Shown: in pieces, positions 1,126-19,229 of the stretch
Numbering within the stretch: position 1 is the stretch's first letter
Layout of the letters: each line of letters opens with the position of its first letter
Source of the DNA: Naegleria gruberi
Taxonomy: Eukaryota
Assembly: GCA_000004985.1 (NCBI GenBank)
Contig: GG738870.1
Direction: 5' to 3' (one strand)
Length of the DNA: 64,000 nt
Notes under the pieces: generated by a model
The model's input: the letters and a program-made list of their open reading frames with translations, nothing else
What the model was told of the DNA's origin: nothing
The model's database searches: none
Translations under genes and position numbers: made by a program

Positions 1126-2019
1126 ATGAAAATTTTGAATAGATATGAGGCTTGGTGGCCTGTTAGAATAGTTTTGGATGAAAACTATTCGACGCCACAG
1201 TTGTTTAAGAAGCAGATAGGAAATTCTGATAAGGATGAAATACGAGTGGTGAAGGAATGTATTGTAAGAATGCAAAATGAGCAAATTCATGAGAAGGATG
1301 AGAATGGATGGTTATTAGATATCAAGCGAAACATGACGAAATCAAGAATTCACATATATGAACAAATATTGAATGGATTTACCAATATTAATCAAAAGCA
1401 AAGGACAACCGAACTAATTAAGAAATTGAATTTGTGGGAAAATAGAGATTTTGCCTCATTATTTGTTGTTAAAAGGGATTTTACTGATCTGCCTTTTAAA
1501 TGGCAGCAAGAAAAGGAAATTGCACTGATAGCTATTCGAAGGGAGCCTAGTACATTCCAATTATTATCAAGAGAATTAAGAATGGACAAGGAAGTTATCA
1601 TGACAGCTGTCAAATTAAATGGAGATTTGCTGAGATATGTATGTGCAACGATTGAAAGAGAAATGGTTTTTACAGCCTTCTCTGCACTAATACCAATCAA
1701 ATATTGTGGTTTATATTGGATTATTGGTAAAATGGCTGATGATAGGGATATTGTAATGGCAGCTGTCAAATCTGATGGTCAAGCTCTTAAGAATGCTTAT
1801 GAATATCAAAATGACAGAGAAATTGTAACAACAGCTGTGCAACATAATGGCTGTGCTATTCAATATGCTTCATTTGAATTGCAATTAGATACTGAGATAG
1901 TGCTGACAGCTGTCAAGCAAAATCCTGATGCTTATTTCCTTGCAACATTTGAATGTCAGACAGATCCTGAAATAATGGAAGCTGCTGGTATAACAGAAGA
2001 TATGGGAATTCTATTTTAA
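1126..2019 (+). CDS. DUF4116-like repeat protein.
   Basis: ATG at 1126 in an A-rich context. Tandem ~35-aa repeats of the form (E/D)(I/V)V(L/M)TAVK(Q/L)NG.AL(K/Q)YAS.EL..D.EIV, typical of the DUF4116 family. TAA stop. Confidence 0.6.
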   Translation: MKILNRYEAWWPVRIVLDENYSTPQLFKKQIGNSDKDEIRVVKECIVRMQNEQIHEKDENGWLLDIKRNMTKSRIHIYEQILNGFTNINQKQRTTELIKKLNLWENRDFASLFVVKRDFTDLPFKWQQEKEIALIAIRREPSTFQLLSRELRMDKEVIMTAVKLNGDLLRYVCATIEREMVFTAFSALIPIKYCGLYWIIGKMADDRDIVMAAVKSDGQALKNAYEYQNDREIVTTAVQHNGCAIQYASFELQLDTEIVLTAVKQNPDAYFLATFECQTDPEIMEAAGITEDMGILF

Positions 2020-2286
2020 CAAATTTCAAAATAAAATCTTTGAAATTCATAGAAAATTAAGATTTTATTCAAAATAATAGTAATCAAATTTAATGGTTGC
2101 GTGAAACAAATGGATTCACCTTGCAATTGAAAATATTCATGTTTGGAATTGCGAGAAGCATGTCGTCCTAAGTTCTAATAAATATTCGATTTTAAATTCG
2201 AATCCGAAAAAGGAATTTCTTGTCGTATAACTAGTTTGCATGATATGAGTTTGTTAGCAATTCACCAATTTAAAAAACCGAACCAC

Positions 2287-3710
2287 ATGAAACTCTATAT
2301 CTTCTTATTATTGACATTCCTGTCAGCTGTTCTTGTCAATAATCTTCCAATTAAAAGAAGAAACAAAGACTTAGAAAAATCATTCAATATTTTTCAATTT
2401 GGCAATCCAATCCAACCCTCTACCAAACATCCAATCCACAATATCAAAATTAACAAAGTTTCAAACCTTCAAATGTCACCAATAATTCTTGTTGGTGGAT
2501 TGGGTGGCTCCTCACTCATGTCCCAACGAAATCACAGCACCAACGAGCCACACTGGTGGTGTCAAAGAACCACTGATCCATTTCAGATTTGGTTATCCCT
2601 TCAGGAAATGATCCCCTATCTCTCAGAAGATTGTTTTGTGAACGACATGTCAGTGGAATTAAAAAATGGAATTCTTGGACAGAAAGATAGAAATGTTAGG
2701 ATTTTTGGAAAGGATATTGGTGGTATGGAAGGTTTAAATTCGATTATTGCAGAGTTTCCAAGTAAATGGTATTATATGAAGCCACTGGCTGACTATTTAG
2801 TTTCGAATGGAAGTTACGAAATTGGAAAGAGTTTGAGAGGGTTTACTTATGACTGGAGAGTGGGTGTCAGAGAGAGGGCAAATGATAGTTTGTCACTCGG
2901 AGGGGATTACTTCAAACTACAAAAATTGGTGGAAGAAACTTTTAAATTGAATGGAAGAAAAGTTTCCTTATTAGGGCATTCTATGGGAGGACCTTTCTTA
3001 CAATATTTTCTAGCTAATTTTGTGAGTCAAGATTGGAAAGATAGATATATTTACAAGTATATTCCTGTGGCTGGTCCATTTGATGGAACATCATTTTCTT
3101 TGGTAAGTAATTCAATTAACTTTTATTCGAAACATTTCAGATTCTTTATGTGACTGGAACTAATTGGCAATTTCCAGGATTCAAACCAGAAAATGCAAAG
3201 AAATTACTTAGACAATATCCTTCCATTCTATTCATGACTCCAACCCAATTTCCATACAAGTATCCATTCTTTTCTTATAAAGGAAATGTGAGCTATCATG
3301 TTGACCTTTCGGATATTGAGAAATTCTTGACAGATGCACAAGTTTCCAATGGAGTTGCACTCTACCATCACGAATACTCTCAATATAAGCACAATAGATT
3401 AAATGCACCTAACGTGACCACTCATTGCATGTATGGTTATGGAACTCCAACAGCCACACGTGTCAGATATACTGGAAACAAGGAATTGAAAGATTTAAAT
3501 TACATGGACGTGTTACATAACACCACTGTTGTGAATAGTGAAGATGGAGATGGAACTGTTCCAATATATTCTTTGGAATTATGTGATCAATTTGCCAAAA
3601 GTCAAAAAAAACCAGTTCATGTTCATCGATTTGCAAATGAAACTCACTCAGATATTATTAATTCAGAACAGTTCCAAAAAATATTACTGGAAATTCTCTC
3701 ATATGATTAA
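2287..3710 (+). CDS. LCAT/LPLA2-family phospholipase (lecithin:cholesterol acyltransferase-like) with signal peptide. Two exons: 2287..3102 and 3141..3710.
   Basis: Signal-peptide-like N-terminus MKLYIFLLLTFLSAVLV. An alternative in-frame ATG lies at 2245. Lipase pentapeptide GHSMGG. Intron 3103..3140 (gtaagtaatt...catttcag) joins ...GTSFSL to ILYVTGTNWQFPGFKP. This junction aligns with the intronless paralogue at 17841..19229 (SPILHMTGDTYG). Confidence 0.8.
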
Positions 3711-4392
3711 AAAATCATTCCATTTTAATAATTATTATTCCATTTATAGAAAAATGTGTGAACTTTAAATTTAAACTTTCTTGAAAATGCAAAAGAGGAA
3801 ATTTTGAGTACATACTACACCTAATTTTTCTCAGCCTGTTGTTGTTGCCAATATTTTCACTAAAATCATTATCACTGTCAGATTCGCATGATAATTCGGA
3901 AAACTTTCAATCTAATATTGTTCAACAACATGATCGATTCCATCAGGTACTTCCGAACATTTTCCTATTGGTTATCATGATGATATAGGTATTATTGTTT
4001 GCATTCCAATGATTTTGTAAAACTGTCTTTAAATTTGATATTTGGTTCTCTTGTCGATCGACAATATCTTCTGTATCTTTGTTTTCTTGTTTTTCTTGAG
4101 GGGATTTCCTGTTAGTGTTCCCTTCTCACTGGCTGTTGCTGTTGTTGTTTCATAGCATCCTTAATTTGTTGTTGGACGTCAACAACCAATTCATTACTTG
4201 TTGACATTTTTCAAAGTAATTATCAAATTAATAAATATTCAATATTGAAGTATATAAAATTTCATTCAAAACAAATATTTTGAGGAATTGAATTTAAGAA
4301 TGGATCGGGATCCCTCAATCATGTAATATTTAAATATCAAATTTAATATTTAAATTATTTTGATATTACAATTTCGGAAGTTTACAAATCAA

Positions 4393-4675
4393 AAAAAAAA
4401 AATGAAAATTCAAAATTTACCTTGTGATTTGTGTGCCGAACACTTGCTATGTTTTTTCAATGAATACCACTTGCTGCAGATGAGATTTATTTCAAAGGCT
4501 TTTGATGAGTGGATCTGGTACTATTTCCTGAATAACAAGACTCGCTACTTGATTCACATCGCATTGGGTAATCATAGGATCGGAGGAGTTGTCGATAATT
4601 TACTGATCAAGATGAAACGATTGAAGGTTATTGATTTGTTTACATTCAATTCTTTGGATTTCTTGTCATTAACAG
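4393..4675 (+). CDS. F-box-like ORF (MKIQNLPCDLCAEHLLCFFNEYHLLQMRFISKAFDEW...). Possibly a 5' exon of the downstream LRR gene, but the join is unresolved.
   Basis: F-box-like LP.DL...L..F......L......SK.F..W pattern. A GTAATT donor follows at 4676. The strong acceptor tttttag at 4737 leads to an in-frame stop. Only a weak acceptor at 4788-4789 (ttgag|) gives an in-frame join to the 4834 ORF. Confidence 0.3.
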
Positions 4676-4833
4676 GTAATTGTTTATTAATTTATTATTA
4701 TTTATTGATGGTCGATTAATATTTGCTGCTTTTTTAGATGTGGGTTTGTGTGAGCTTGGACGATTGTCAGTGGAAGAGTTGAGGTTGAGAGCTGCAACTT
4801 TGTGTTTCTGGAAGTTTCATTGTTGAGTGGATA

Positions 4834-7800
4834 ATGAATGCAAGTCCATTGTTGGAATCTTTGACAGTATTGACACTTACTAATCTTAAAACTGAATATT
4901 TTCACTTGTTGAAAGAGTTTAAGAATTTAAAAACTCTCGAGTTGATACGTCTTGTATCTGAACGAAATCTCCATGAAGAAGAAATGGATCAAACCATGAT
5001 TGGGTTTCCTCAATCTTTGACAGAGTTTCGTTCTAACTATCCACTAACACGCAAGAATATTGAGGACATCACACAACAATGTCCAAATTTAACAGTTTTG
5101 GTTATCAACCCTATTTATTTTGATGATTCTATCATGTCATTAGTACTTTCCAATGTTTCACAAAAGATTGAACAATTTTCTCTCTTTTCTCGAGACACAC
5201 TATCAAATATAACTGGTTCATACTTTTCAGTATTTTCATCCAATTCATTCTCCCATTTGAAAAAGATCAAGGTGGTATGGAAATCAACTTCTGATGAAAC
5301 AATATTGAATCTTCAAAAGAATTTGAGTCTCCTTTCAAGAACATTAGAAAGATTGAAAGTTGTTTTCACTAATGAATATGATTCCTCATATGAATTAGAT
5401 ACATTGTTAGGTTGTCTCTGTAATCTCTCCAACTTGTCTAAATTAACATTAGACTTTCCAAGAAATTTTCAATTTACCATTGTAAAAGAAGATATTTTGG
5501 AACAATTGAAAAGTTGTTTACAACTCAGAATTCTGAAAATTTATGGAGGTACTAACGAAATAGTTTGTTTTAATGTTGTTAAGGCTTTGGCAGGACAACA
5601 TTTGGAAAAACTGTTGTATCATACTGATACTTATTTTGATATTGAGGAGGAACCATTCTTTTTCCATGAATGTGAAGATTTAAAAATTTTGGATCTGCAA
5701 GGTGAACAGCTCCAAGATAAAATTATTCATCAAAATATCCAAGCAATAGTAAATTGCAAACTGGAAGAAGTTTTAGGTGAGGCCATTGAAGCTTCAGTTA
5801 TTCCTCATTTACCTAGGAGTTCTCTAAAGGTTCTTAATGTAAGGGTAACCAACGAGAATGTTGAATATCTAAAATATCTTGGAGAATTCAAGAATTTGAC
5901 AACATTGAAAGTATGCTTTGGTGAGCAGGTTACTAACTTACAAGAGTGCACTTTTCCAAGTAACATTACTAATCTTTCTTTTGTTGGAGAGATTACTGGA
6001 GCAGAAATTGGATTCAAAGACTGGCTGCTCTCTACAAAAATTTTAAAAGAATTAGTGTTTTCAAGATGTAAGATTCAAGATGAATTTATTAAGGATATTA
6101 TTCCCCTATCTGATGAATTGGATATCCTAAAAATAGAGTACAACAACGGCCTTACACAAGAATCAACACAATATTTCAGACAATTCACCAATTGTAGAGT
6201 TTTACTGTTGGAATGCTTTGACTCTAGAGTATTGAGCGCAGATTATTCTCTTTTTGAACAAGAAGTTAACAGGGTTACCGTTATAATGAAAGAAGAATCA
6301 CCAAGCACAAAATGGATTTGCCCAACAATTGATTATAATGATATTGATCAAGGTCTTTCCTATGTAAGAGAAAGAATGCATGTAAGAGAAATGAAAGATG
6401 CATGTTTAGCTATTGAACAACTATCCAGACATGTTTTTTTAGACATTTCGAAAGCCGAAATTTGTAAACTTTTTCTGAGTGCTTTTCAATATGAAACTAA
6501 TGTGGACTTTTATGGAATAATTGATCTTTTGGATGTACTATGGAAAGAAGGAAAAATTGTATTTGAGGAAAATAATATTCACGATCTGGAAAAGTTAATA
6601 CCTCTAATATTATCTCAAACTGAATTTTGTGTTGTTGCTAATATTTTAATGGATTTAGGGAGGTTCACCAGTTTTTTCAATTGTTTTGAGTATATCATAC
6701 AATGTTTGAATGATATTGAGTATAATATTCATAATTGCACACAAAAGATGATCAGTAGAGTTTTACATCAGTTTATTGATGGGAAACAAGATATTTGTAA
6801 TTTTTCTGGACATGTTGTTATTAATACTGTTATTGCAGTAGTGGATTATTTCCCACAAAATGATAGCATTTTGGACTTTATCAACCTAGTCATGTCCAAT
6901 GAATTTTTCAAATCTTCGAAGAAAACCTTAGAACTTATTGCAGAAAAGAAAGCAAAAATAGATGCAGAGTTCACAGAAACAGAAATTGAGCCAATATTGA
7001 AACCTATAGGAGAGGACCTTTTCCAATTTGTGCAGGAGAATATTCCACCACAGAAAAAAGATTATACCATTCATATTGCAGATGTTAAGGTACCAAAAAC
7101 TGGCCCTTTTAATACTAGCTATTATTCTGAACCTTTCATACGGTTTGGACACGAGTGGGTTGTGGAGCTTCTGCCAGGTATGTTACGTTTTATTAATTTT
7201 CTAATTATCTAATCGGAAACAGATGATGAAGATGAATGTTTGGGCAATTCTACAGTATTTTTAACACTAAATTCCACAATTCCAGTAGAGAATAAGCAAC
7301 AGGTATTTGATAGAATAAGACTCGACTTTTTTATTTGTAATTTTGATCTAGAACCTCAATCCTATCTTGTTCACAGTAGAAAATTCATTATGCCTGAAGC
7401 ATCTTATGGAGTATTTCTTGATAAAACTCATATTGCCGCTTACTCAACAGATGAGGATGATTTTCTCAAGTTTAAATTTGTGGTTGGGATGAAGAAAGTT
7501 GAGGAAGAACCATTCAAACCTTTCAATAATATTGAAATGTTCCATGTTGGAAGTAAGGAATTATCCTCAACTAATTATCCTCCTATTGTTCATAGATGGG
7601 CAGCAGAGTTTCCATTATCCATCCATACTTTGACATTTCGTGTTAGTCCTGATAATATTGATAGGTGTTGTTATTCAGATAAGTTCACAGCATTTGGAGC
7701 CAAGTTTTCAGCTTGTTTCAATCACTTGGGTGTTGCCAAAAGTAAGTAGTTTTATGAAATTAGTTACAAACACGTGTATTTCACTACGCGATAATTAACA

Positions 7801-8133
7801 GAGGTTAAGGATTTTAGAGAAAACTCATCAATATATCTATATCTATCTTCCTTTGATTACAATGACAAAGAAAATGAATTGGAATCAATCAAAGTTAAGG
7901 CAATATTTGCAAATTCTGATTTCCACACAGAATCATTCTATGTTTTCAAAAATACATTTCAATCACTTACAAGTTCAGGAAGCACAATACAAAGAGCCTA
8001 CTATCAACCCAAACTAATCCATGTAGATGGAAAGCCTTACTATGAATATGTTGTAAATTGTTGTCTTGCCTTAATGAGTAGAAAAACTTGTCATCCATTT
8101 GGATACAATAAAGAGGAAGAAGAGGATGTTTGA
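4834..8133 (+). CDS. Leucine-rich-repeat protein, about 1064 aa. Three exons: 4834..7177, 7223..7741 and 7802..8133.
   Basis: Long ORF with an LRR-like periodicity (LxxLxLxxN...). GTATGT donor at 7178 and acceptor ...aaacag| at 7222 keep the frame into the 7240 ORF. GTAAGT donor at 7742 and acceptor ttaacag| at 7801 keep the frame into the 7879 ORF. Phases are consistent at both junctions. Confidence 0.6.
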
Positions 8134-8161
8134 ATGAATAGATTAAATAAAGAATTCCATT

Positions 8162-8537
8162 AGAAATGTTAGGATTTTTGGAAAGGATATTGGTGTGGTA
8201 TGGAAGGTTTAAATTCGATTATTGCAGAGTTTCCTATTAAATGGTGACTATTTAGTTTCGAATGGAAGTTACGAAATTAGAAAGAGTTTGAGAGGGGAAG
8301 AAACTTTTAAATCACATATTTGCCAAAAGTCAAAGAAAACCAGTTCATGTTCATCGATGTGCAAATGAAACTCATTCAGATATTATTAATTCAGAACAGT
8401 TCCAAAAAATGTTACTGGAAATTCTCTCATATGATTAAAAAAACTTTCCAATTTAATAATTATTATTCCATTTATAGAAAAATGTGTGAAATATAAATTT
8501 AAACTTTCTTGAAAATACAAAAGAGGAAATTTTGAGT
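8162..8537 (+). pseudogene. Decayed partial duplicate of the LCAT-like gene at 2287..3710: a mosaic of four colinear fragments plus the 3' UTR.
   Basis: 8162-8235 matches 2687-2756. 8236-8297 matches 2762-2840 with a ~20-nt deletion. 8297-8313 matches 2931-2946. 8319-8537 matches 3593-3800 (last codons, stop and 3' UTR). Fragments are about 93-95% identical, in the same orientation, with no intact ORF. Confidence 0.75.
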
Positions 8538-9227
8538 AGTATTGAAAGGTGTAGTATGCACTTGTTCGAAACTTTCAACAAGTTCAAACTTGCACTCAAC
8601 ATTCTCAAACATTTTCATCCATTTTCCAGTGTCGTATTGAGTAATAGGAAGACCGCTGCATTTAGTTGGTCCACCATTTGATGAAAATGTGGAAATGAGA
8701 AAGTAACCGCCCTTCTTTAACAATTTGCACATAATTTTTAAGTACTGAACTTGATCTTCCATAGAATTCAAAAAGTGAAAAGTGGCTCGGTCATGCCAAA
8801 TGTCAATTATTTGCTCTTCTTTCAAAACCGAGTCCAATTTCAAAATATTACTTTCAATGAATGAAACTCTTTCCAATCCATTCAAAGCTTTCATTAATTC
8901 TCGACTTCTTTCAAGAGCTGCCTTTGAAATGTCAATCAAGAAATATTCGCCAAATGTCACTTTTTCTCTCTTGATTATTTCATAGCTCAGATGGGAATTT
9001 CCGCAACCAACATCGATAAATGTCTTGTTGGCATCAGAAACATCGAGAGCGGAACCAAACTTTTCTATTAATTCCAATGAAGTTTCCGGAATTTCCTGAA
9101 ACCAACTTGTTTGTGAATCTGCTTTGGTTTCGTAAACATTTTCCCAGTGCGATTTCAAATCAGTGCTTGCTTCTTGAAGAGCTGAGCTTGCCACAAGTGT
9201 TGGTGTTGTTGAGGATTCTTGTTGCAT
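8499..9227 (-). CDS. Class I SAM-dependent methyltransferase.
   Basis: ATG at 9227 in an aaaaaaaATG context; the ORF-track start at 9275 is GTG. Motif I reads IDVGCGNSHLSYEII. Motif post-I/II (FLIDISKAAL) and the Rossmann pattern are present. TAA stop. Confidence 0.75.
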   Translation of the reverse strand: MQQESSTTPTLVASSALQEASTDLKSHWENVYETKADSQTSWFQEIPETSLELIEKFGSALDVSDANKTFIDVGCGNSHLSYEIIKREKVTFGEYFLIDISKAALERSRELMKALNGLERVSFIESNILKLDSVLKEEQIIDIWHDRATFHFLNSMEDQVQYLKIMCKLLKKGGYFLISTFSSNGGPTKCSGLPITQYDTGKWMKMFENVECKFELVESFEQVHTTPFNTTQNFLFCIFKKV

Positions 9228-9611
9228 TTTTTTTCTTACTGTCGGCTGAACACCAGTATTATTGCGCCATTTCACAAAACATACTATTATGGTGTGAAGG
9301 TTGGGCCGATTATCCTCATGACTTGTAAGGTGTGGAGCATTAACGTGAGAATCAGGATATCAAAATTGATGAAAATTGCAGAGATATCTATAGATATTTA
9401 CAAAATTATACTATGCCTTGATTCTGATAAATTGTTATTTATTTACAATAAAGAAATGTTGTTAATATATTATAAGGTACATTAACAGAGATTGGATTAC
9501 ATGACTAGGTGGTGTGTGTTATGGGGTTGGAGATTAGGTGGTTATATTACATTGATTCACTCGCTGGGACTATATAGAGTTTCATTCTCAAGAGAAAGTT
9601 GACCAAATACT

Positions 9612-11319: not shown

Positions 11320-11550
11320 TTTTTTATGTTTTGAAAATTTCATCTCCTGAAAATGTTTGTGAATTTAAAGTTTTTGCGATTTTGCTTTATTTTTAGTTTT
11401 TGAAATTTTCATGTTGTTTCAATTTGGTTGCTGTAACACGGAAAGTCGTTGGAAAAGGATAGTATGGAGTTTAGTTTTGGATATTTGCATTAGAATGGAA
11501 TTTCAATGAACATTTTTTGAACTTTATTGTAAATTTTCTTGTTAAAAAAA

Positions 11551-12687
11551 ATGTCATCAAACTGTATACACTCCCTCTCACTCGATGAAATTTTCAACGT
11601 GATGGAATTTCTCCCACTGAAAGATATTGGAAATGCTTTATGTGTTTGTCGAGAGTGGAATTCCCTAGATCAATATGAACCGTTTTGGAAGGCAAAGCTC
11701 AACCATTTTCTCTCCTCTAATATTATTCATTATTTCAGAAAATGCCAAGAGTTGTGTGGTTCTGACTTGAAAGTTTCGAATAACTTGAATGCTCAACAAA
11801 TTATTTCCATTCTAAACTCGGACGATTCCAAGAAGAAATCAATGGTCATTATTGCACTCAAATCCATGAAATGTGTTAACAAGACAATAATGGAACGTAT
11901 TGATTATCAAATTAACAAATCTATTTTAACAATGTTGGTCAACTCGTTTGATATGAATGTTTTGAAAGATAAAGTTGCGAATAGAATTTCACTCAGAATG
12001 ATTAAACAACAAGAATCTCAAAAAGAAGAACAAGTGATTGATCAGGAAAATGATTTCTTTGCATATGTCAGTGATGAGGAACAAGAGAAGAAGAATGATG
12101 AGGAATTAATTGGAGGACGATTCAAATACCTATTGGAAAGGCAAATCTTGTCAATTATTTCAACAACTATTTCCACATTCCTTTCCAAAAAGGTTAATAG
12201 AATAGGATTGTTTCCATTATTTATCAGAATTTTAACAAATAAGGAGTATAGATTCAAAGAAACTGAAATAAGTGATGATATTGACCTAGTGGAATATAAT
12301 GTCTTGCTTCAACTTGTGAAATTTCACAAAAAGTCAGAAATTCTCCTCAGGTATTGGACAGAATTGATTGACATGTCTATTAACAGATTGACATTAGAGG
12401 TAAGAGAGGAGGATTTTGGAGAAATATTGGAAACATTAATTGAGAAATATGACAACATATACTCTCTCACCATCCTTGGAGATATTTTCGATGAATTGGA
12501 ATATTTTGAACGTTTCTTACCACATTTAAAGAAATCAATTCAGAAGAATGGAATTGAGAGTGAATTTCTCATTTCCTACCTCGGTCGTTTGTCAAGATTG
12601 GAAATTCCAATTTCAAAAAAGTGGGAACGGGCTCAAATTTATTTGGAATACATTTTAGATTTTGCTCCCCCAGCCATCACAAACTTN
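11551..12687 (+). CDS. F-box protein, truncated at its 3' end by the assembly gap.
   Basis: ATG at 11551 (MSSNCIHSLSLDEIFNVMEFLPLKDIGNALCVCREWNSL is an F-box). The ORF runs uninterrupted into the N-run that starts at 12688. Confidence 0.55.
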
Positions 12688-13052
12688 NNNNNNNNNNNNN
12701 NNNNNNNNNNNNNNNNNNNNNNNNNNNNNNNNNNNNNNNNNNNNNNNNNNNNNNNNNNNNNNNNNNNNNNNNNNNNNNNNNNNNNNNNNNNNNNNNNNNN
12801 NNNNNNNNNNNNNNNNNNNNNNNNNNNNNNNNNNNNNNNNNNNNNNNNNNNNNNNNNNNNNNNNNNNNNNNNNNNNNNNNNNNNNNNNNNNNNNNNNNNN
12901 NNNNNNNNNNNNNNNNNNNNNNNNNNNNNNNNNNNNNNNNNNNNNNNNNNNNNNNNNNNNNNNNNNNNNNNNNNNNNNNNNNNNNNNNNNNNNNNNNNNN
13001 NNNNNNNNNNNNNNNNNNNNNNNNNNNNNNNNNNNNNNNNNNNNNNNNNNNN
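12688..13052. other. Assembly gap, 365 N.
   Basis: Contiguous n characters. All ORF-track entries containing X span this gap and are artefacts. Confidence 1.
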
Positions 13053-13249
13053 GATCCAAAATTTTATATTTGTCTTTACAATGCTTGCCAATTAAGATTC
13101 AACCACAATGTTTAATATTTAGCATCATTGCCAAATCTACAGTGCATCTTCCTGAAACTTTACAATTTCTTCAAGAATCTGGCAAGTGCAACCACCAAAT
13201 GGAAAATTCTAAAAATAAAACAAAACATTTCAAAAAAAAAAGCCACAAA

Positions 13250-13925: not shown

Positions 13926-14830
13926 TCAATCCTTCACATGTCCAATGGCATGTTTATTTTGTGAAATGGCAATATGAACAGTCTTGTTGATAAATCTGTC
14001 AGCAAGTCTTCTCAAGACAAGTCCATTTATAGAGACAGCAACCTTTACCATATCTTCACTGATACGGTTGGCATGTTCGATGAGGAATGGATTCTTCTTG
14101 ATAATAGGGGTCATAAGTTCAATGTCAGATCTGTGGAATATTGAAGCATAACGAATGGAATTCCCACATTGATTAGTGGCAACGGTAACGAGTTCCTTAT
14201 CATAGGTATATTCTGTTGGAAGATATTCCAACAATCTACATATCTCTTGACAGACTTTCTAATAAATTCATCATCGTTTCTCAAATATTCGTCCCAAAAT
14301 TCGAATGATTTACCATTACTTGTCTTGAGTGATATCTTGACAATTTCCAAATCCTTCTTCAATTCTGATGAAGCAAACCTGACAGCCAATCCACAATTCT
14401 TGACACCATCCAAAACAATTTGCTTGCTGTTTTGCAAATCAGCAGAGGCAAACTTTAAGGCACGATCATTTACTGAAACTGCCTTTTGAACAATTTCATA
14501 ATCACTTCTGAATGGAATCGCCAAATATCCCAAGGCGAGATCATTAGTGGTAATTAGAGTGAAAATTCTCTGTCTTGTTTGAGGGTTTCACTGGCATGCT
14601 TTAGGGAATTTCAATTCTTCTTGAAACAATCGATTACAAACCTGGAATCACTCTTCAAATCATCAGAGGCGAGTTTGAGGATAGTAGCTGATTCTTACGA
14701 GCAAGTGAGAGTTTGACATCTGAATCTTGTTGTAATTCCTTTGAAAGATAAACGAATGATTTTCCACTTTGATTTAGAGTTACCAAAGCAACTTAGCAAT
14801 GAGAAATGATCCAAAACTTGTCAAGATTGC
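13926..14830 (-). pseudogene. Second DUF4116-repeat gene. The frame is disrupted, so it is a candidate pseudogene or an unresolved multi-exon gene.
   Basis: Two overlapping ORFs in different frames (13926..14234 and 14111..14533) and further DUF4116-like fragments with stops up to about 14830 (e.g. ALKFASADLQNSKQIVLDGVKNCGLAVRFASSELKKDLEIV; LKLASDDLKSD). No clean splice sites restore one frame. Confidence 0.4.
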
Positions 14831-17840: not shown

Positions 17841-19229
17841 TTATAATATTTCCAACAATTTGATAAAGAAACGTTCCTCCATCATGATACCAATGTGATG
17901 AGCACCCGGTAACACTGTAGTTTCAATCTTCTCCTCCTGCTTAAATTGTGAACACATCTCCAAGCAATAATCAGGCAAAGTATCATCACCACGTTCCCAT
18001 CTCGAAGCTTGAATATCTGCAGAGGTCAACTCTTCCATTCTCTTTGGACCAGTATAGGAATATTGAGTTGGAGTCCAATTATTGGAACCATAGATACATT
18101 GTGTTGGAACACCTGGAGCTGCAAATTTAATATCGAGAATGGATTGAGATTCTTGCATGAATAATTCCCAACCATTGGTCATTGAAGCATCTTTCATGAA
18201 TTGACCATAACTTTCAACTGTTGCAAAATAGTTGGCTTTCTGATTGGTTTGATTATTGGTATATTGGAACATTGGATAATTGGTGAATGGGGTTTTGAGT
18301 GGATACATGTATGAAGGACTGCCAAATGTACGAACCATCTTTTTGAATTGTTCTCTACTAAGGAAGAATAATCCATAAGTATCGCCTGTCATGTGAAGAA
18401 TTGGACTTTGAATTTCACCATCGTATGATCCTGAAACACTAATGAATTGTTTGATGAATTTTTGTTTCCATTCCTTAGAAACATGAGTGGCAAGAAAGAG
18501 TTGAGTGAATGGAGCTCCCAAGCTATGTCCAAGTAAGCTCACTTGAGTTCCATTGTTGAGATAGTAGGTATCTTCAACGAGTTTTTGAAGAATATCATAA
18601 TCTCCTCCAGTATTATTCATTCTTTTTGATTTCCACTCAATTGGACCAGTTCTCCAATCATAGGTCATTGCTCTCAATGTTTTTCCTCCAATATATCCAC
18701 CATGTTTAATTAAATAGGAAGTTAACAATTCCATATAGACTGCCTGATTAATAAATTCATAATTAGTAATGTAATTCACTCCACTCAGACCACCAACATC
18801 CTTTCCAGTGATGGAAACACCTGCATCTAATGGATGTAATTTTCTCGGTTGTCCCCTCAAATCCAATGTCAAATCATGCACTGTACATTCCTCTGTTACA
18901 TGTGGAATTAATTCATTCAAATTGGCCCACACTTGAAATGGCTCACTCGTTGTACTTTCACACCAAAAGTGTGGTTCCTTTGCATTGGTTCTTTGTGCAT
19001 TGAGAGCTGATCCACCAAATCCTCCCAATAGAATCAATGGACTCAATGTTGTGGAATTGTTTGTTGAGATGGCTCTTCTTGGATTTGGTGGTCCCTTGAA
19101 GGTCTTCCAGATTTCACTTGCTCGTTGACGAGTAATGACTGGTATTGGCAAAGAGTGAACTGTTAAAGATAAACAAATAATGACAACAAAGAGTGCCGTA
19201 AACAATTGTGCAATCAGATTGCTAGACAT
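17841..19229 (-). CDS. LCAT/LPLA2-family phospholipase, a paralogue of the 2287..3710 gene. Single exon, signal peptide.
   Basis: ATG at 19229. Hydrophobic N-terminus. GHSLGAP lipase motif. Colinear similarity to the other LCAT-like gene. Confidence 0.8.
   Translation of the reverse strand: MSSNLIAQLFTALFVVIICLSLTVHSLPIPVITRQRASEIWKTFKGPPNPRRAISTNNSTTLSPLILLGGFGGSALNAQRTNAKEPHFWCESTTSEPFQVWANLNELIPHVTEECTVHDLTLDLRGQPRKLHPLDAGVSITGKDVGGLSGVNYITNYEFINQAVYMELLTSYLIKHGGYIGGKTLRAMTYDWRTGPIEWKSKRMNNTGGDYDILQKLVEDTYYLNNGTQVSLLGHSLGAPFTQLFLATHVSKEWKQKFIKQFISVSGSYDGEIQSPILHMTGDTYGLFFLSREQFKKMVRTFGSPSYMYPLKTPFTNYPMFQYTNNQTNQKANYFATVESYGQFMKDASMTNGWELFMQESQSILDIKFAAPGVPTQCIYGSNNWTPTQYSYTGPKRMEELTSADIQASRWERGDDTLPDYCLEMCSQFKQEEKIETTVLPGAHHIGIMMEERFFIKLLEIL

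What the first reader, a model, noticed from the sequence alone, without database searches (positions are those of the whole stretch)
8162..8537. Decayed mosaic pseudogene copy of the upstream LCAT-like lipase gene
About 375 bp here are made of four colinear pieces of the LCAT-like gene at 2287-3710 (coding fragments from 2687-2756, 2762-2840 and 2931-2946, then the last codons plus the full 3' UTR from 3593-3800). The pieces are joined with internal deletions of roughly 20, 90 and 650 bp and are about 93-95% identical to the parent. The copy lies about 4.5 kb downstream of the parent in the same orientation, overlaps the 3' end of the convergently oriented methyltransferase gene, and has no open frame. 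A second intact LCAT paralogue sits at 17841-19229. This looks like a young tandem segmental duplicate in the process of being deleted.
Basis: seen in the sequence. Interest (0 to 1): 0.5.

Follow-up and report, generated by a model that had tools for sequence, protein, structure and literature searches.

The report
Decaying LCAT gene remnant beside methyltransferase
A 380-base stretch between two converging genes of the amoeba Naegleria gruberi is the dead, repeatedly deleted remnant of a duplicated lipase (LCAT-like) gene; this is an ordinary kind of genomic fossil, although the remnant probably marks the older site of the gene and not a copy of the intact gene upstream.

Summary
Window 8161-8538 is made of five colinear blocks of the LCAT-like gene at 2287-3710. 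They cover 371 aligned nt at 96.5% identity (BLASTN E 7e-100 and 3e-47). Between the blocks are a 2-nt insertion and deletions of 20, 90 and 642 nt. The organism is Naegleria gruberi, not a dictyostelid.

The interpretation needs correcting in three ways.
- The last 40 nt of the repeat (8499-8538) are the true, bacteria-conserved last 13 codons plus stop of the convergent methyltransferase. The intact LCAT gene carries a dead copy of that tail at 3771-3812. The duplicated unit therefore came from the methyltransferase-adjacent site, so the "pseudogene" probably sits at the older site and the intact gene is the daughter, or each site lost one gene of a duplicated pair.
- It is not a strict tandem copy: an unrelated 1014-aa gene lies between the two copies.
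- Contigs of a second strain (about 98% identical) keep LCAT sequence where the reference has the 642-nt deletion. They also lack the reference's left junction. Decay is therefore stepwise and partly strain-specific.

Three of the junctions carry short inverted fillers copied from sequence just beyond the breakpoint, which is a template-switch repair signature. Overall this is an ordinary duplicated pseudogene with a well-preserved history.

The parts
8127..8160 (+). Left junction scar between the end of gene D2VGE5 and the remnant. It consists of 23 nt of filler followed by an inverted snippet: 8150-8161 is the reverse complement of LCAT 2665-2676 (12/12).
   Evidence: Homology between the reference and strain S2 stops at 8126. 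Inverted 12-mer. Null test: 2/3000 random targets do as well.
8161..8192 (+). Remnant block 1, equal to LCAT1 2688-2719 (32/32). It is followed by a 2-nt GT insertion at 8193-8194.
8195..8244 (+). Remnant block 2, equal to LCAT1 2720-2769 (48/50). The junction to block 3 deletes 20 nt (2770-2789) with 1 nt of microhomology.
8245..8295 (+). Remnant block 3, equal to LCAT1 2790-2840 (50/51). The junction to block 4 deletes 90 nt with 1 nt of microhomology.
8296..8312 (+). Remnant block 4, equal to LCAT1 2931-2947 (17/17).
8313..8317 (+). Filler CACAT at the 642-nt deletion. ATCACATA is the reverse complement of LCAT sequence lying just left of the right breakpoint (around 3579-3586). This deletion is absent in strain S2.
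   Evidence: 8-mer, 33/3000; S2 contig L008 continues into LCAT 3562-3589
8318..8438 (+). Remnant block 5a, equal to LCAT1 3590-3710: the last 40 LCAT codons plus the stop. The frame is locally intact but is out of frame with the upstream blocks.
8439..8498 (.). Shared 60-nt spacer between the LCAT stop and the methyltransferase stop, equal to 3711-3770 (5 mismatches).
8499..8538 (-). Part of the repeat that is functional methyltransferase coding sequence: the stop codon and most of the last 13 codons (TQNFLFCIFKKV*). It equals 3771-3810.
   Evidence: C-terminus conserved in Naegleria, Willaertia and bacteria
8499..9275 (-). Intact class I SAM-dependent methyltransferase gene (NCBI XP_002676792 / D2VGE6; the annotated start is at 9227).
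2287..3710 (+). Intact LCAT-like gene LCAT1. Exons are 2287-3102 and 3141-3710, with a 38-nt intron, giving 461 aa. The GHSMGG, DGDGT and ETHSD motifs are present.
3771..3812 (-). Dead fragment of the methyltransferase tail (12/13 aa plus stop) immediately downstream of LCAT1.
   Evidence: tblastn; alignment
3807..3822 (+). Right junction of the repeat at the LCAT1 locus. This 16-mer is the reverse complement of 8547-8562 (15/16), which is methyltransferase coding sequence lying 9-24 nt beyond the end of the homology.
   Evidence: I12; 4/3000
4987..8133 (+). Unrelated intervening gene (D2VGE5, 1014 aa, LRR-like) that separates the two LCAT copies.
17841..19229 (-). Old, intact LCAT paralogue (462 aa). 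It is not involved in this duplication.

Best explanation
The segment is the non-functional remnant of a DNA-level (non-processed) duplicate of an LCAT-like lipase/acyltransferase gene in Naegleria gruberi. It fills the 365-nt spacer between two converging genes.

The duplicated unit ran from inside or upstream of the LCAT gene, through its stop codon and a 60-nt spacer, into the last 13 codons of the convergent methyltransferase. That methyltransferase tail is ancestral only at the 8.5-kb site, so an LCAT gene once stood intact next to the methyltransferase. There are then two possibilities. Either the LCAT gene plus a stub of methyltransferase was copied to the upstream site, or the whole LCAT-methyltransferase pair was duplicated and each site lost one gene.

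The upstream copy (2287-3710) stayed functional. The copy next to the methyltransferase became redundant and is being removed piece by piece. In the reference lineage it has lost its 5' part (at least the first 401 nt of coding sequence), then 20, 90 and 642 nt internally, and it has gained 2 nt. The catalytic Ser and Asp motifs are gone.

At least the 642-nt deletion and the 5' truncation arose after the split from a second sequenced strain. Three junctions carry short inverted fillers copied from sequence a few bases beyond the breakpoint. This is the mark of polymerase template switching during replication or microhomology-mediated end joining.

Shown: the homology, the breakpoints, the methyltransferase tail at both loci, the strain differences and the inverted fillers. 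Inferred: the direction of copying, the order of events and the repair pathway.
For: Homology and breakpoints:
- define the blocks and junctions.

Direction of copying:
- The methyltransferase C-terminus HTTPFNTTQNFLFCIFKKV is conserved in N. fowleri, N. lovaniensis, Willaertia and Bacteroidota homologues.
- The same 40 nt (39/40 identical) plus the stop lie as an orphan fragment after LCAT1. No other methyltransferase sequence is found there.

Loss of function:
- The LCAT frames are broken.
- The Ser motif at 2974 and the Asp motif at 3546 fall in the deleted part.

Second strain S2 (ENA ERZ929261):
- L008 is 97.5% identical over 11155-8318 and then continues into LCAT 3562-3589 instead of the reference's deletion junction.
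- Its LCAT tail has a private 4-nt frameshift and 4 non-synonymous against 1 synonymous private change in 40 codons. In contrast, S2's LCAT1 (L005) differs from the reference at codon positions 1/2/3 = 4/0/12. S2 therefore also has a live copy and a dead copy.
- L009 follows the intervening gene to 8126 and then diverges into a PARP-domain gene that is absent from the window. The divergence point is exactly where the reference's junction scar starts.

Inverted fillers against random targets:
- 16-mer with 1 mismatch: 4/3000
- 12-mer: 2/3000
- 8-mer: 33/3000
Against: - The direction of copying rests on one feature, the 40-nt methyltransferase tail. A later ectopic repair event at the LCAT1 3' flank, using the remnant locus as template, could have put the tail there even if LCAT1 were the original.
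- The three-way site pattern (B1-private 5, B2-private 4, S2-private 6) is star-like and does not order the duplication relative to the strain split.
- The S2 locus is known only from three short metagenome contigs. It is not shown that the PARP-domain gene lies between the intervening gene and the remnant in S2, so the event in the reference could be a translocation and not a simple deletion.
- There is no synteny in other Heterolobosea that would identify the ancestral LCAT position.
- The repair pathway is inferred from junction anatomy only.
Confidence: 0.7

Rival explanations
1. LCAT1 at 2287-3710 is the parent. A copy was placed about 4.5 kb downstream next to the methyltransferase and is decaying. 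The methyltransferase tail behind LCAT1 arrived later, through break repair that invaded the remnant by LCAT homology, copied on into the methyltransferase and was then end-joined.
For: LCAT1 is the intact copy. The right junction at 3807-3822 carries a templated inverted filler of the kind produced when synthesis-dependent repair ends in end joining.
Against: It needs two transfers in opposite directions. A conversion at the 3' end should make the 3' block the least diverged, but that block is the most diverged: 10/221 against 3/150 mismatches, although the difference is not significant.
Confidence: 0.15
2. A single complex event. The ancestor had one LCAT gene directly converging on the methyltransferase. 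The 4.3-kb segment carrying gene D2VGE5 was inserted, with duplication of about 1.1 kb of target (2688-3810). This left an intact LCAT on the left and an intact methyltransferase on the right. Only the internal deletions came later.
For: It explains in one step why both genes are intact and why both fragments are partial. Both flanks of the 4.3-kb segment carry mirror-image inverted snippets taken from just outside the duplicated block. In S2 the intervening gene has a different right-hand neighbour.
Against: S2 already has a degenerate LCAT tail next to its methyltransferase, evolving without coding constraint, together with a constrained LCAT1. The duplication therefore predates the split, yet S2 lacks the junction between the intervening gene and the remnant. 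Only one N. gruberi protein falls in the 90% cluster of the intervening gene, so no donor copy is evident. The same inverted-filler signature occurs at the internal 642-nt deletion, which cannot be part of such an event.
Confidence: 0.08
3. A processed (retrotransposed) pseudogene, or a gene fragment captured by a transposon of the Pack-MULE or Helitron type.
For: The copy is a mosaic of gene pieces, and the only intron lies inside a missing part.
Against: Homology runs 100 nt past the LCAT stop codon, with no A-tract, into the coding sequence of the opposite-strand gene. No terminal inverted repeats or target-site duplications flank it. The second strain shows that the missing parts are later deletions.
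Confidence: 0.02
4. The remnant is retained because it functions. It could supply 3'-end signals for both convergent genes, or it could be read as an antisense RNA against LCAT1 when methyltransferase transcription runs through it.
For: It makes up nearly the whole 365-nt convergent spacer. About 340 nt would be antisense to LCAT1 mRNA at 96% identity if transcribed from the methyltransferase strand.
Against: It evolves faster between strains (about 6%) than other intergenic DNA (about 2.4%), and it suffers strain-specific deletions and frameshifts. There is no Rfam match. No expression data are available.
Confidence: 0.04
5. An assembly artefact, from collapsed or chimeric reads.
For: The window comes from a draft assembly with an N gap at 12687-13052.
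Against: The two copies differ at 13 positions and by five indels. An independent assembly from another strain reproduces the adjacency of LCAT tail and methyltransferase, with its own private variants inside the final k-mer.
Confidence: 0.01

Closest known systems
Duplicated (non-processed) pseudogenes formed by segmental duplication, including reciprocal loss of the two genes of a duplicated pair
   Same: It is a DNA-level copy that keeps non-coding flank and part of the neighbouring gene. It has lost promoter, start codon and catalytic motifs. It carries frameshifts and deletions and evolves without codon-position bias. The paralogue stays under purifying selection.
   Different: It is very small (371 nt left of at least 1.1 kb). 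It sits in a compact protist genome, squeezed between two converging genes. The intact gene, not the remnant, carries the tell-tale fragment of the neighbouring gene, so the remnant probably marks the original site.
Templated-insertion junctions of polymerase-theta-mediated end joining, and replicative template switching (FoSTeS/MMBIR, short template-switch mutations)
   Same: The junctions have 1 nt of microhomology. Three have 5-16 nt fillers that are reverse complements of sequence lying 5-24 nt beyond the breakpoint.
   Different: The template of each filler is not retained in the product; it lies in the deleted or uncopied side. This fits a forward jump onto the opposite strand better than a classical snap-back on a retained tail. 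The enzyme responsible in Naegleria has not been identified here.
Processed pseudogenes (retrocopies)
   Same: It is a fragmentary, promoter-less copy of a gene near other genes.
   Different: There is no poly(A) and no target-site duplication. The copy continues past the transcript's coding end into the opposite-strand gene. The gaps are later deletions and not removed introns.

Membership tests
Duplicated (non-processed) pseudogene | Significant nucleotide homology to a functional paralogue in the same genome | tested here: met
   371 nt at 96.5% identity, E 7e-100 and 3e-47. The paralogue has an intact 461-aa frame with Pfam LCAT hits.
Duplicated (non-processed) pseudogene | Disabling lesions (truncation, frameshifts, loss of catalytic residues) | tested here: met
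   The first 401 nt of coding sequence are missing. There are indels of +2, -20 and -637 nt net. The GHSMGG and DGDGT motifs are deleted. Stops occur in all frames.
Duplicated (non-processed) pseudogene | Copy includes non-transcribed or flanking DNA of the source locus | tested here: met
   The 60-nt spacer and 40 nt of the convergent methyltransferase coding sequence are shared.
Duplicated (non-processed) pseudogene | Relaxed selection compared with the functional copy | tested here: met
   Between strains, the remnant differs at codon positions 2/4/1 with about 6% divergence. LCAT1 differs at 4/0/12 with 1.1-2.3% divergence.
Processed pseudogene | Poly(A) tract at the 3' end and flanking target-site duplications | tested here: not met
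   Homology continues without an A-tract to 8538, inside the methyltransferase coding sequence. No flanking direct repeats were found.
Processed pseudogene | Precise absence of introns | not testable with these tools
   The only intron (3103-3140) lies inside the 642-nt deletion. The S2 contig ends before reaching it.
Transposon-captured gene fragment (Pack-MULE or Helitron) | Terminal inverted repeats or Helitron termini, and target-site duplication, around the fragment | tested here: not met
   The repeat finder on 2000-9400 shows no flanking inverted or direct repeats.
Tandem segmental duplication | Two copies head-to-tail with nothing unrelated between them | tested here: not met
   4.3 kb with an unrelated 1014-aa gene lies between the copies. 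There is no second copy of that gene on either side.
Template-switch or theta-mediated end-joining junction | Short microhomology plus filler templated from nearby sequence | tested here: met
   The two simple deletions have 1 nt of microhomology. Three junctions have inverted fillers, with null frequencies of 4/3000, 2/3000 and 33/3000.
Template-switch or theta-mediated end-joining junction | Dependence on a specific polymerase (Pol theta) or on replication | not testable with these tools
   No genetic or biochemical data are available. A literature search for Naegleria plus polymerase theta returned nothing.

The most novel reading that the evidence does not exclude
The remnant is not merely junk. 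Read-through transcription of the methyltransferase would produce about 340 nt of RNA antisense to LCAT1 mRNA at 96% identity. The fossil would then act as a pseudogene-derived antisense or siRNA regulator of the surviving LCAT gene, and it would serve as a shared 3'-end region for both convergent genes.
Probability: 0.04. Interest if true: 0.5.

Novelty: new member of a known kind. Interest (0 to 1): 0.22.

Why it matters
On its own this is an ordinary unannotated pseudogene fragment in Naegleria gruberi. It has three modest uses.

- It is a clean example of why the intact copy need not be the parent. A 40-nt stub of the neighbouring gene shows which locus supplied the duplicated DNA.
- With the second strain, it gives a time-resolved view of how a compact protist genome removes redundant DNA: several small to medium deletions, some strain-specific.
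- Its junctions suggest that template-switch or microhomology-type repair operates in Heterolobosea, where DNA repair is little studied.

For annotation, three points follow. The 8161-8498 spacer should be marked as a pseudogene remnant. The LCAT1 gene model should probably be extended to 461 aa. The sequence downstream of LCAT1 should not be read as a simple 3' UTR.

Tried and rejected
- Synteny test for the ancestral LCAT position. The methyltransferase loci of Willaertia magna, N. fowleri and N. lovaniensis and the LCAT loci of N. fowleri and N. lovaniensis share no neighbours with the window. The test is uninformative.
- Look-up of the N. gruberi methyltransferase in the contig index. It is not on record, so the rest of the reference genome could not be searched for a second copy of the intervening gene or for the PARP-domain gene.
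- Scan of JGI metagenomes with a 21-mer shared by both copies. It gave three chance matches and no Naegleria sequence.
- Rfam scan of 7800-8900. No match.
- Literature searches for the ENA project, for Naegleria plus polymerase theta, and for Naegleria pseudogenes. Nothing relevant.
- Direct 12-mer in the left filler (8137-8148 = LCAT 3393-3404). It is not significant (25/400) and was not used.
- Site-pattern phylogeny of the three tails. It is star-like and cannot order the events.
- Retrocopy, transposon capture and misassembly. All were rejected; the reasons are given under the rival explanations.

Full report
**Organism and setting**

The window is 33.6% G+C. The methyltransferase ORF at 8499-9275 (minus strand) is 100% identical to NCBI XP_002676792 / D2VGE6 of Naegleria gruberi. 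The LCAT-like gene matches XP_002676697 / D2VGE4. The window is therefore N. gruberi (Heterolobosea), not a dictyostelid.

The gene order in this region is:
- A DUF4116-like ORF at 1126-2019.
- LCAT1 at 2287-3710 on the plus strand, with exons 2287-3102 and 3141-3710 and a 38-nt GT..AG intron. This gives 461 aa, and both halves hit Pfam LCAT.
- D2VGE5, a 1014-aa LRR-like gene ending at 8133.
- The segment in question, at 8161-8538.
- The methyltransferase at 9275-8499 on the minus strand.

**Check of the observation**

BLASTN of 8000-8700 against the whole window gives only three meaningful non-self matches, all colinear and all to LCAT1:
- 8318-8538 to 3590-3810: 95.5% over 221 nt, no gaps, E 7e-100.
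- 8161-8296 to 2688-2841: E 3e-47.
- 8296-8312 to 2931-2947: 17/17.

A global alignment and direct inspection resolve five blocks totalling 371 nt with 13 mismatches (96.5% identity). They are separated by:
- a GT insertion at 8193-8194;
- a 20-nt deletion with 1 nt of microhomology;
- a 90-nt deletion with 1 nt of microhomology;
- a 642-nt deletion bridged by the filler CACAT.

The LCAT frame is spread over three frames with stops. The GHSMGG nucleophile motif (2974) and the DGDGT motif (3546) lie in the deleted part.

**The '3' UTR' contains the methyltransferase's own C-terminus**

The methyltransferase stop codon is at 8499-8501 and its last 13 codons reach 8540. The final 40 nt of the repeat are therefore methyltransferase coding sequence on the opposite strand.

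The C-terminus (H-T-T-P-F-N-T-T-Q-N-F-L-F-C-I-F-K-K) is conserved in N. fowleri, N. lovaniensis, Willaertia magna and many bacterial class I SAM methyltransferases. H240, T242, P243, Q248, N249, F250 and F255 are invariant in a 14-sequence alignment. It is therefore ancestral where it sits.

tblastn finds a second copy of exactly these 13 codons plus the stop (12/13 aa) at 3812-3774, directly behind LCAT1. No further methyltransferase sequence is found there. The fragment behind LCAT1 must derive from the methyltransferase locus and not the reverse.

The duplicated unit thus spanned the LCAT 3' part, a 60-nt convergent spacer and a stub of the methyltransferase. This means an LCAT gene once stood next to the methyltransferase. 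There are two simple readings:
- The LCAT gene plus the stub was copied to the upstream site.
- An LCAT-methyltransferase pair was duplicated, and each site lost one member.

In both readings the remnant marks the older, or at least an equally old, LCAT site. The intact gene is not simply 'the parent'.

**A second strain**

Protein searches and cluster look-ups led to three contigs of one ENA metagenome assembly, ERZ929261. They are 97-98% identical to the window. I call this strain S2.

- L005 covers 2013-3441 (LCAT1) at 98.25% identity. Its coding differences fall at codon positions 1/2/3 = 4/0/12, which indicates purifying selection.
- L008 covers 11155-8318 at 97.5% identity. It then continues with 28 nt that match LCAT 3562-3589 instead of the reference's deletion junction. 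The 642-nt deletion is therefore absent in S2.
- Within the 40 terminal LCAT codons, the S2 copy has a private 4-nt deletion upstream of the catalytic His and 4 non-synonymous against 1 synonymous private substitution. This contrasts sharply with the constraint seen in L005. S2 therefore also carries a live LCAT1 and a dead copy next to its methyltransferase, and the duplication predates the split of the strains.
- L009 covers 6617-8126 (the 3' part of D2VGE5) at 96.7% identity. It then diverges into 780 nt unrelated to anything in the window, carrying a PARP-domain gene on the opposite strand (Pfam E 1e-12).
- The point of divergence, 8126/8127, is exactly where the reference's junction scar begins.
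- Only one N. gruberi protein is in the 90% cluster of this gene, so L009 is most simply the orthologue.

The junction between D2VGE5 and the remnant, and with it the 5' truncation of the remnant, therefore arose in the reference lineage after the split. The most economical cause is a deletion that removed the PARP-domain gene region and the 5' part of the LCAT copy. Linkage in S2 is not shown.

Divergence between strains is about 6% in the remnant, against about 2.4% in other intergenic DNA and 0.3-2.5% in coding DNA. This fits unconstrained evolution.

The three-way site pattern among the LCAT1 tail, the reference remnant and the S2 remnant is star-like, with 5, 4 and 6 private changes. The duplication is therefore about as old as, or older than, the strain split. 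It is not particularly young.

**Junction anatomy**

Three junctions carry short fillers that are reverse complements of sequence lying just beyond the breakpoint. Each was compared with a null of random window segments as targets, some of which overlap the true source.

| Junction | Filler | Source | Distance of source from breakpoint | Null |
|---|---|---|---|---|
| Right end of the repeat at the LCAT1 locus | 3807-3822 | Reverse complement of 8547-8562 (15/16), methyltransferase coding sequence | 9-24 nt past the end of homology | 4/3000 |
| Left end of the remnant | 8150-8161 | Reverse complement of LCAT 2665-2676 (12/12) | 12-23 nt before the start of homology | 2/3000 |
| The 642-nt deletion | ATCACATA | Reverse complement of LCAT sequence | 5-11 nt left of the right breakpoint | 33/3000 |

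In every case the template lies on the side that is absent from the product. This fits a nascent strand that leaves its template, copies a few bases of the opposite strand slightly ahead, and then lands far away. That is replicative template switching or iterative microhomology-mediated end joining. It fits a snap-back on a retained tail less well.

The other two deletions are simple events with 1 nt of microhomology. The pathway is inferred from anatomy only.

**Alternatives**

- A later repair event could have copied the methyltransferase tail from the remnant locus to the LCAT1 flank. It needs an extra transfer, and the higher divergence of the 3' block does not favour it.
- A single insertion of the D2VGE5 segment into an ancestral adjacent LCAT-methyltransferase pair, with a 1.1-kb duplication, is elegant. 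It conflicts with S2 having a long-dead copy but lacking the junction.
- Retroposition and transposon capture are excluded. There is no poly(A), no terminal repeats and no target-site duplications. The copy extends into the opposite-strand gene.
- Misassembly is excluded by the independent S2 contig.
- There is no Rfam match. A regulatory antisense role cannot be excluded without expression data, but the fast, indel-rich evolution argues against one.

**Verdict**

This is a real but ordinary feature: a decaying, non-processed pseudogene remnant.

Its interest lies in the unusually readable history, namely the neighbour-gene stub that reveals the source locus, the strain-specific stepwise deletions and the template-switch junctions. 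It does not represent a new kind of element.

Noticed in passing
window 2287-3710: The NCBI model of LCAT1 (XP_002676697, 341 aa) starts at an internal Met (MSVELKNG, about 2650). The ORF plus the 38-nt intron supports a 461-aa protein with a hydrophobic N-terminus from the ATG at 2287. The second strain shows third-position-biased divergence across the whole first exon, so the annotated model is probably 5'-truncated.
   Followed up: partly
window 8499-9275 (minus strand): After Naegleria and Willaertia, the best homologues of this methyltransferase are bacterial (Bacteroidota and other) class I SAM methyltransferases at 40-48% identity over the full length. This suggests an old bacterial origin of the gene in Heterolobosea.
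   Followed up: no
window 8443-8451: A cluster of three substitutions is private to the reference remnant, compared with both LCAT1 and strain S2. It creates CTTTCCAATTT, the reverse complement of LCAT 2819-2829. This may be a short template-switch mutation.
   Followed up: partly
L009 1507-2285 (ENA ERZ929261 contig): In the second strain the D2VGE5 orthologue converges on a PARP-domain gene (Pfam PARP E 1e-12). That gene is absent from the whole 64-kb window, which is a structural difference between strains at window position 8126/8127.
   Followed up: partly
window 1126-2019 (+) and 13926-14533 (-): These ORFs are built of repeats of the type 'IV..AVKQNG.AL.YAS.EL..D.EIV', which resemble DUF4116 repeats. 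This identification is from memory and was not tested against Pfam here.
   Followed up: no
window 12687-13052: A run of 366 N (an assembly gap) lies inside an F-box/LRR-like ORF (11539-13095).
   Followed up: no
window 3823-4360: About 540 nt between the LCAT1 locus junction and the F-box-like start of the next gene have no ORF of 70 aa or more. A short minus-strand ORF (4207-4112, MSTSNELVV...) may be the first exon of a small unannotated gene.
   Followed up: no
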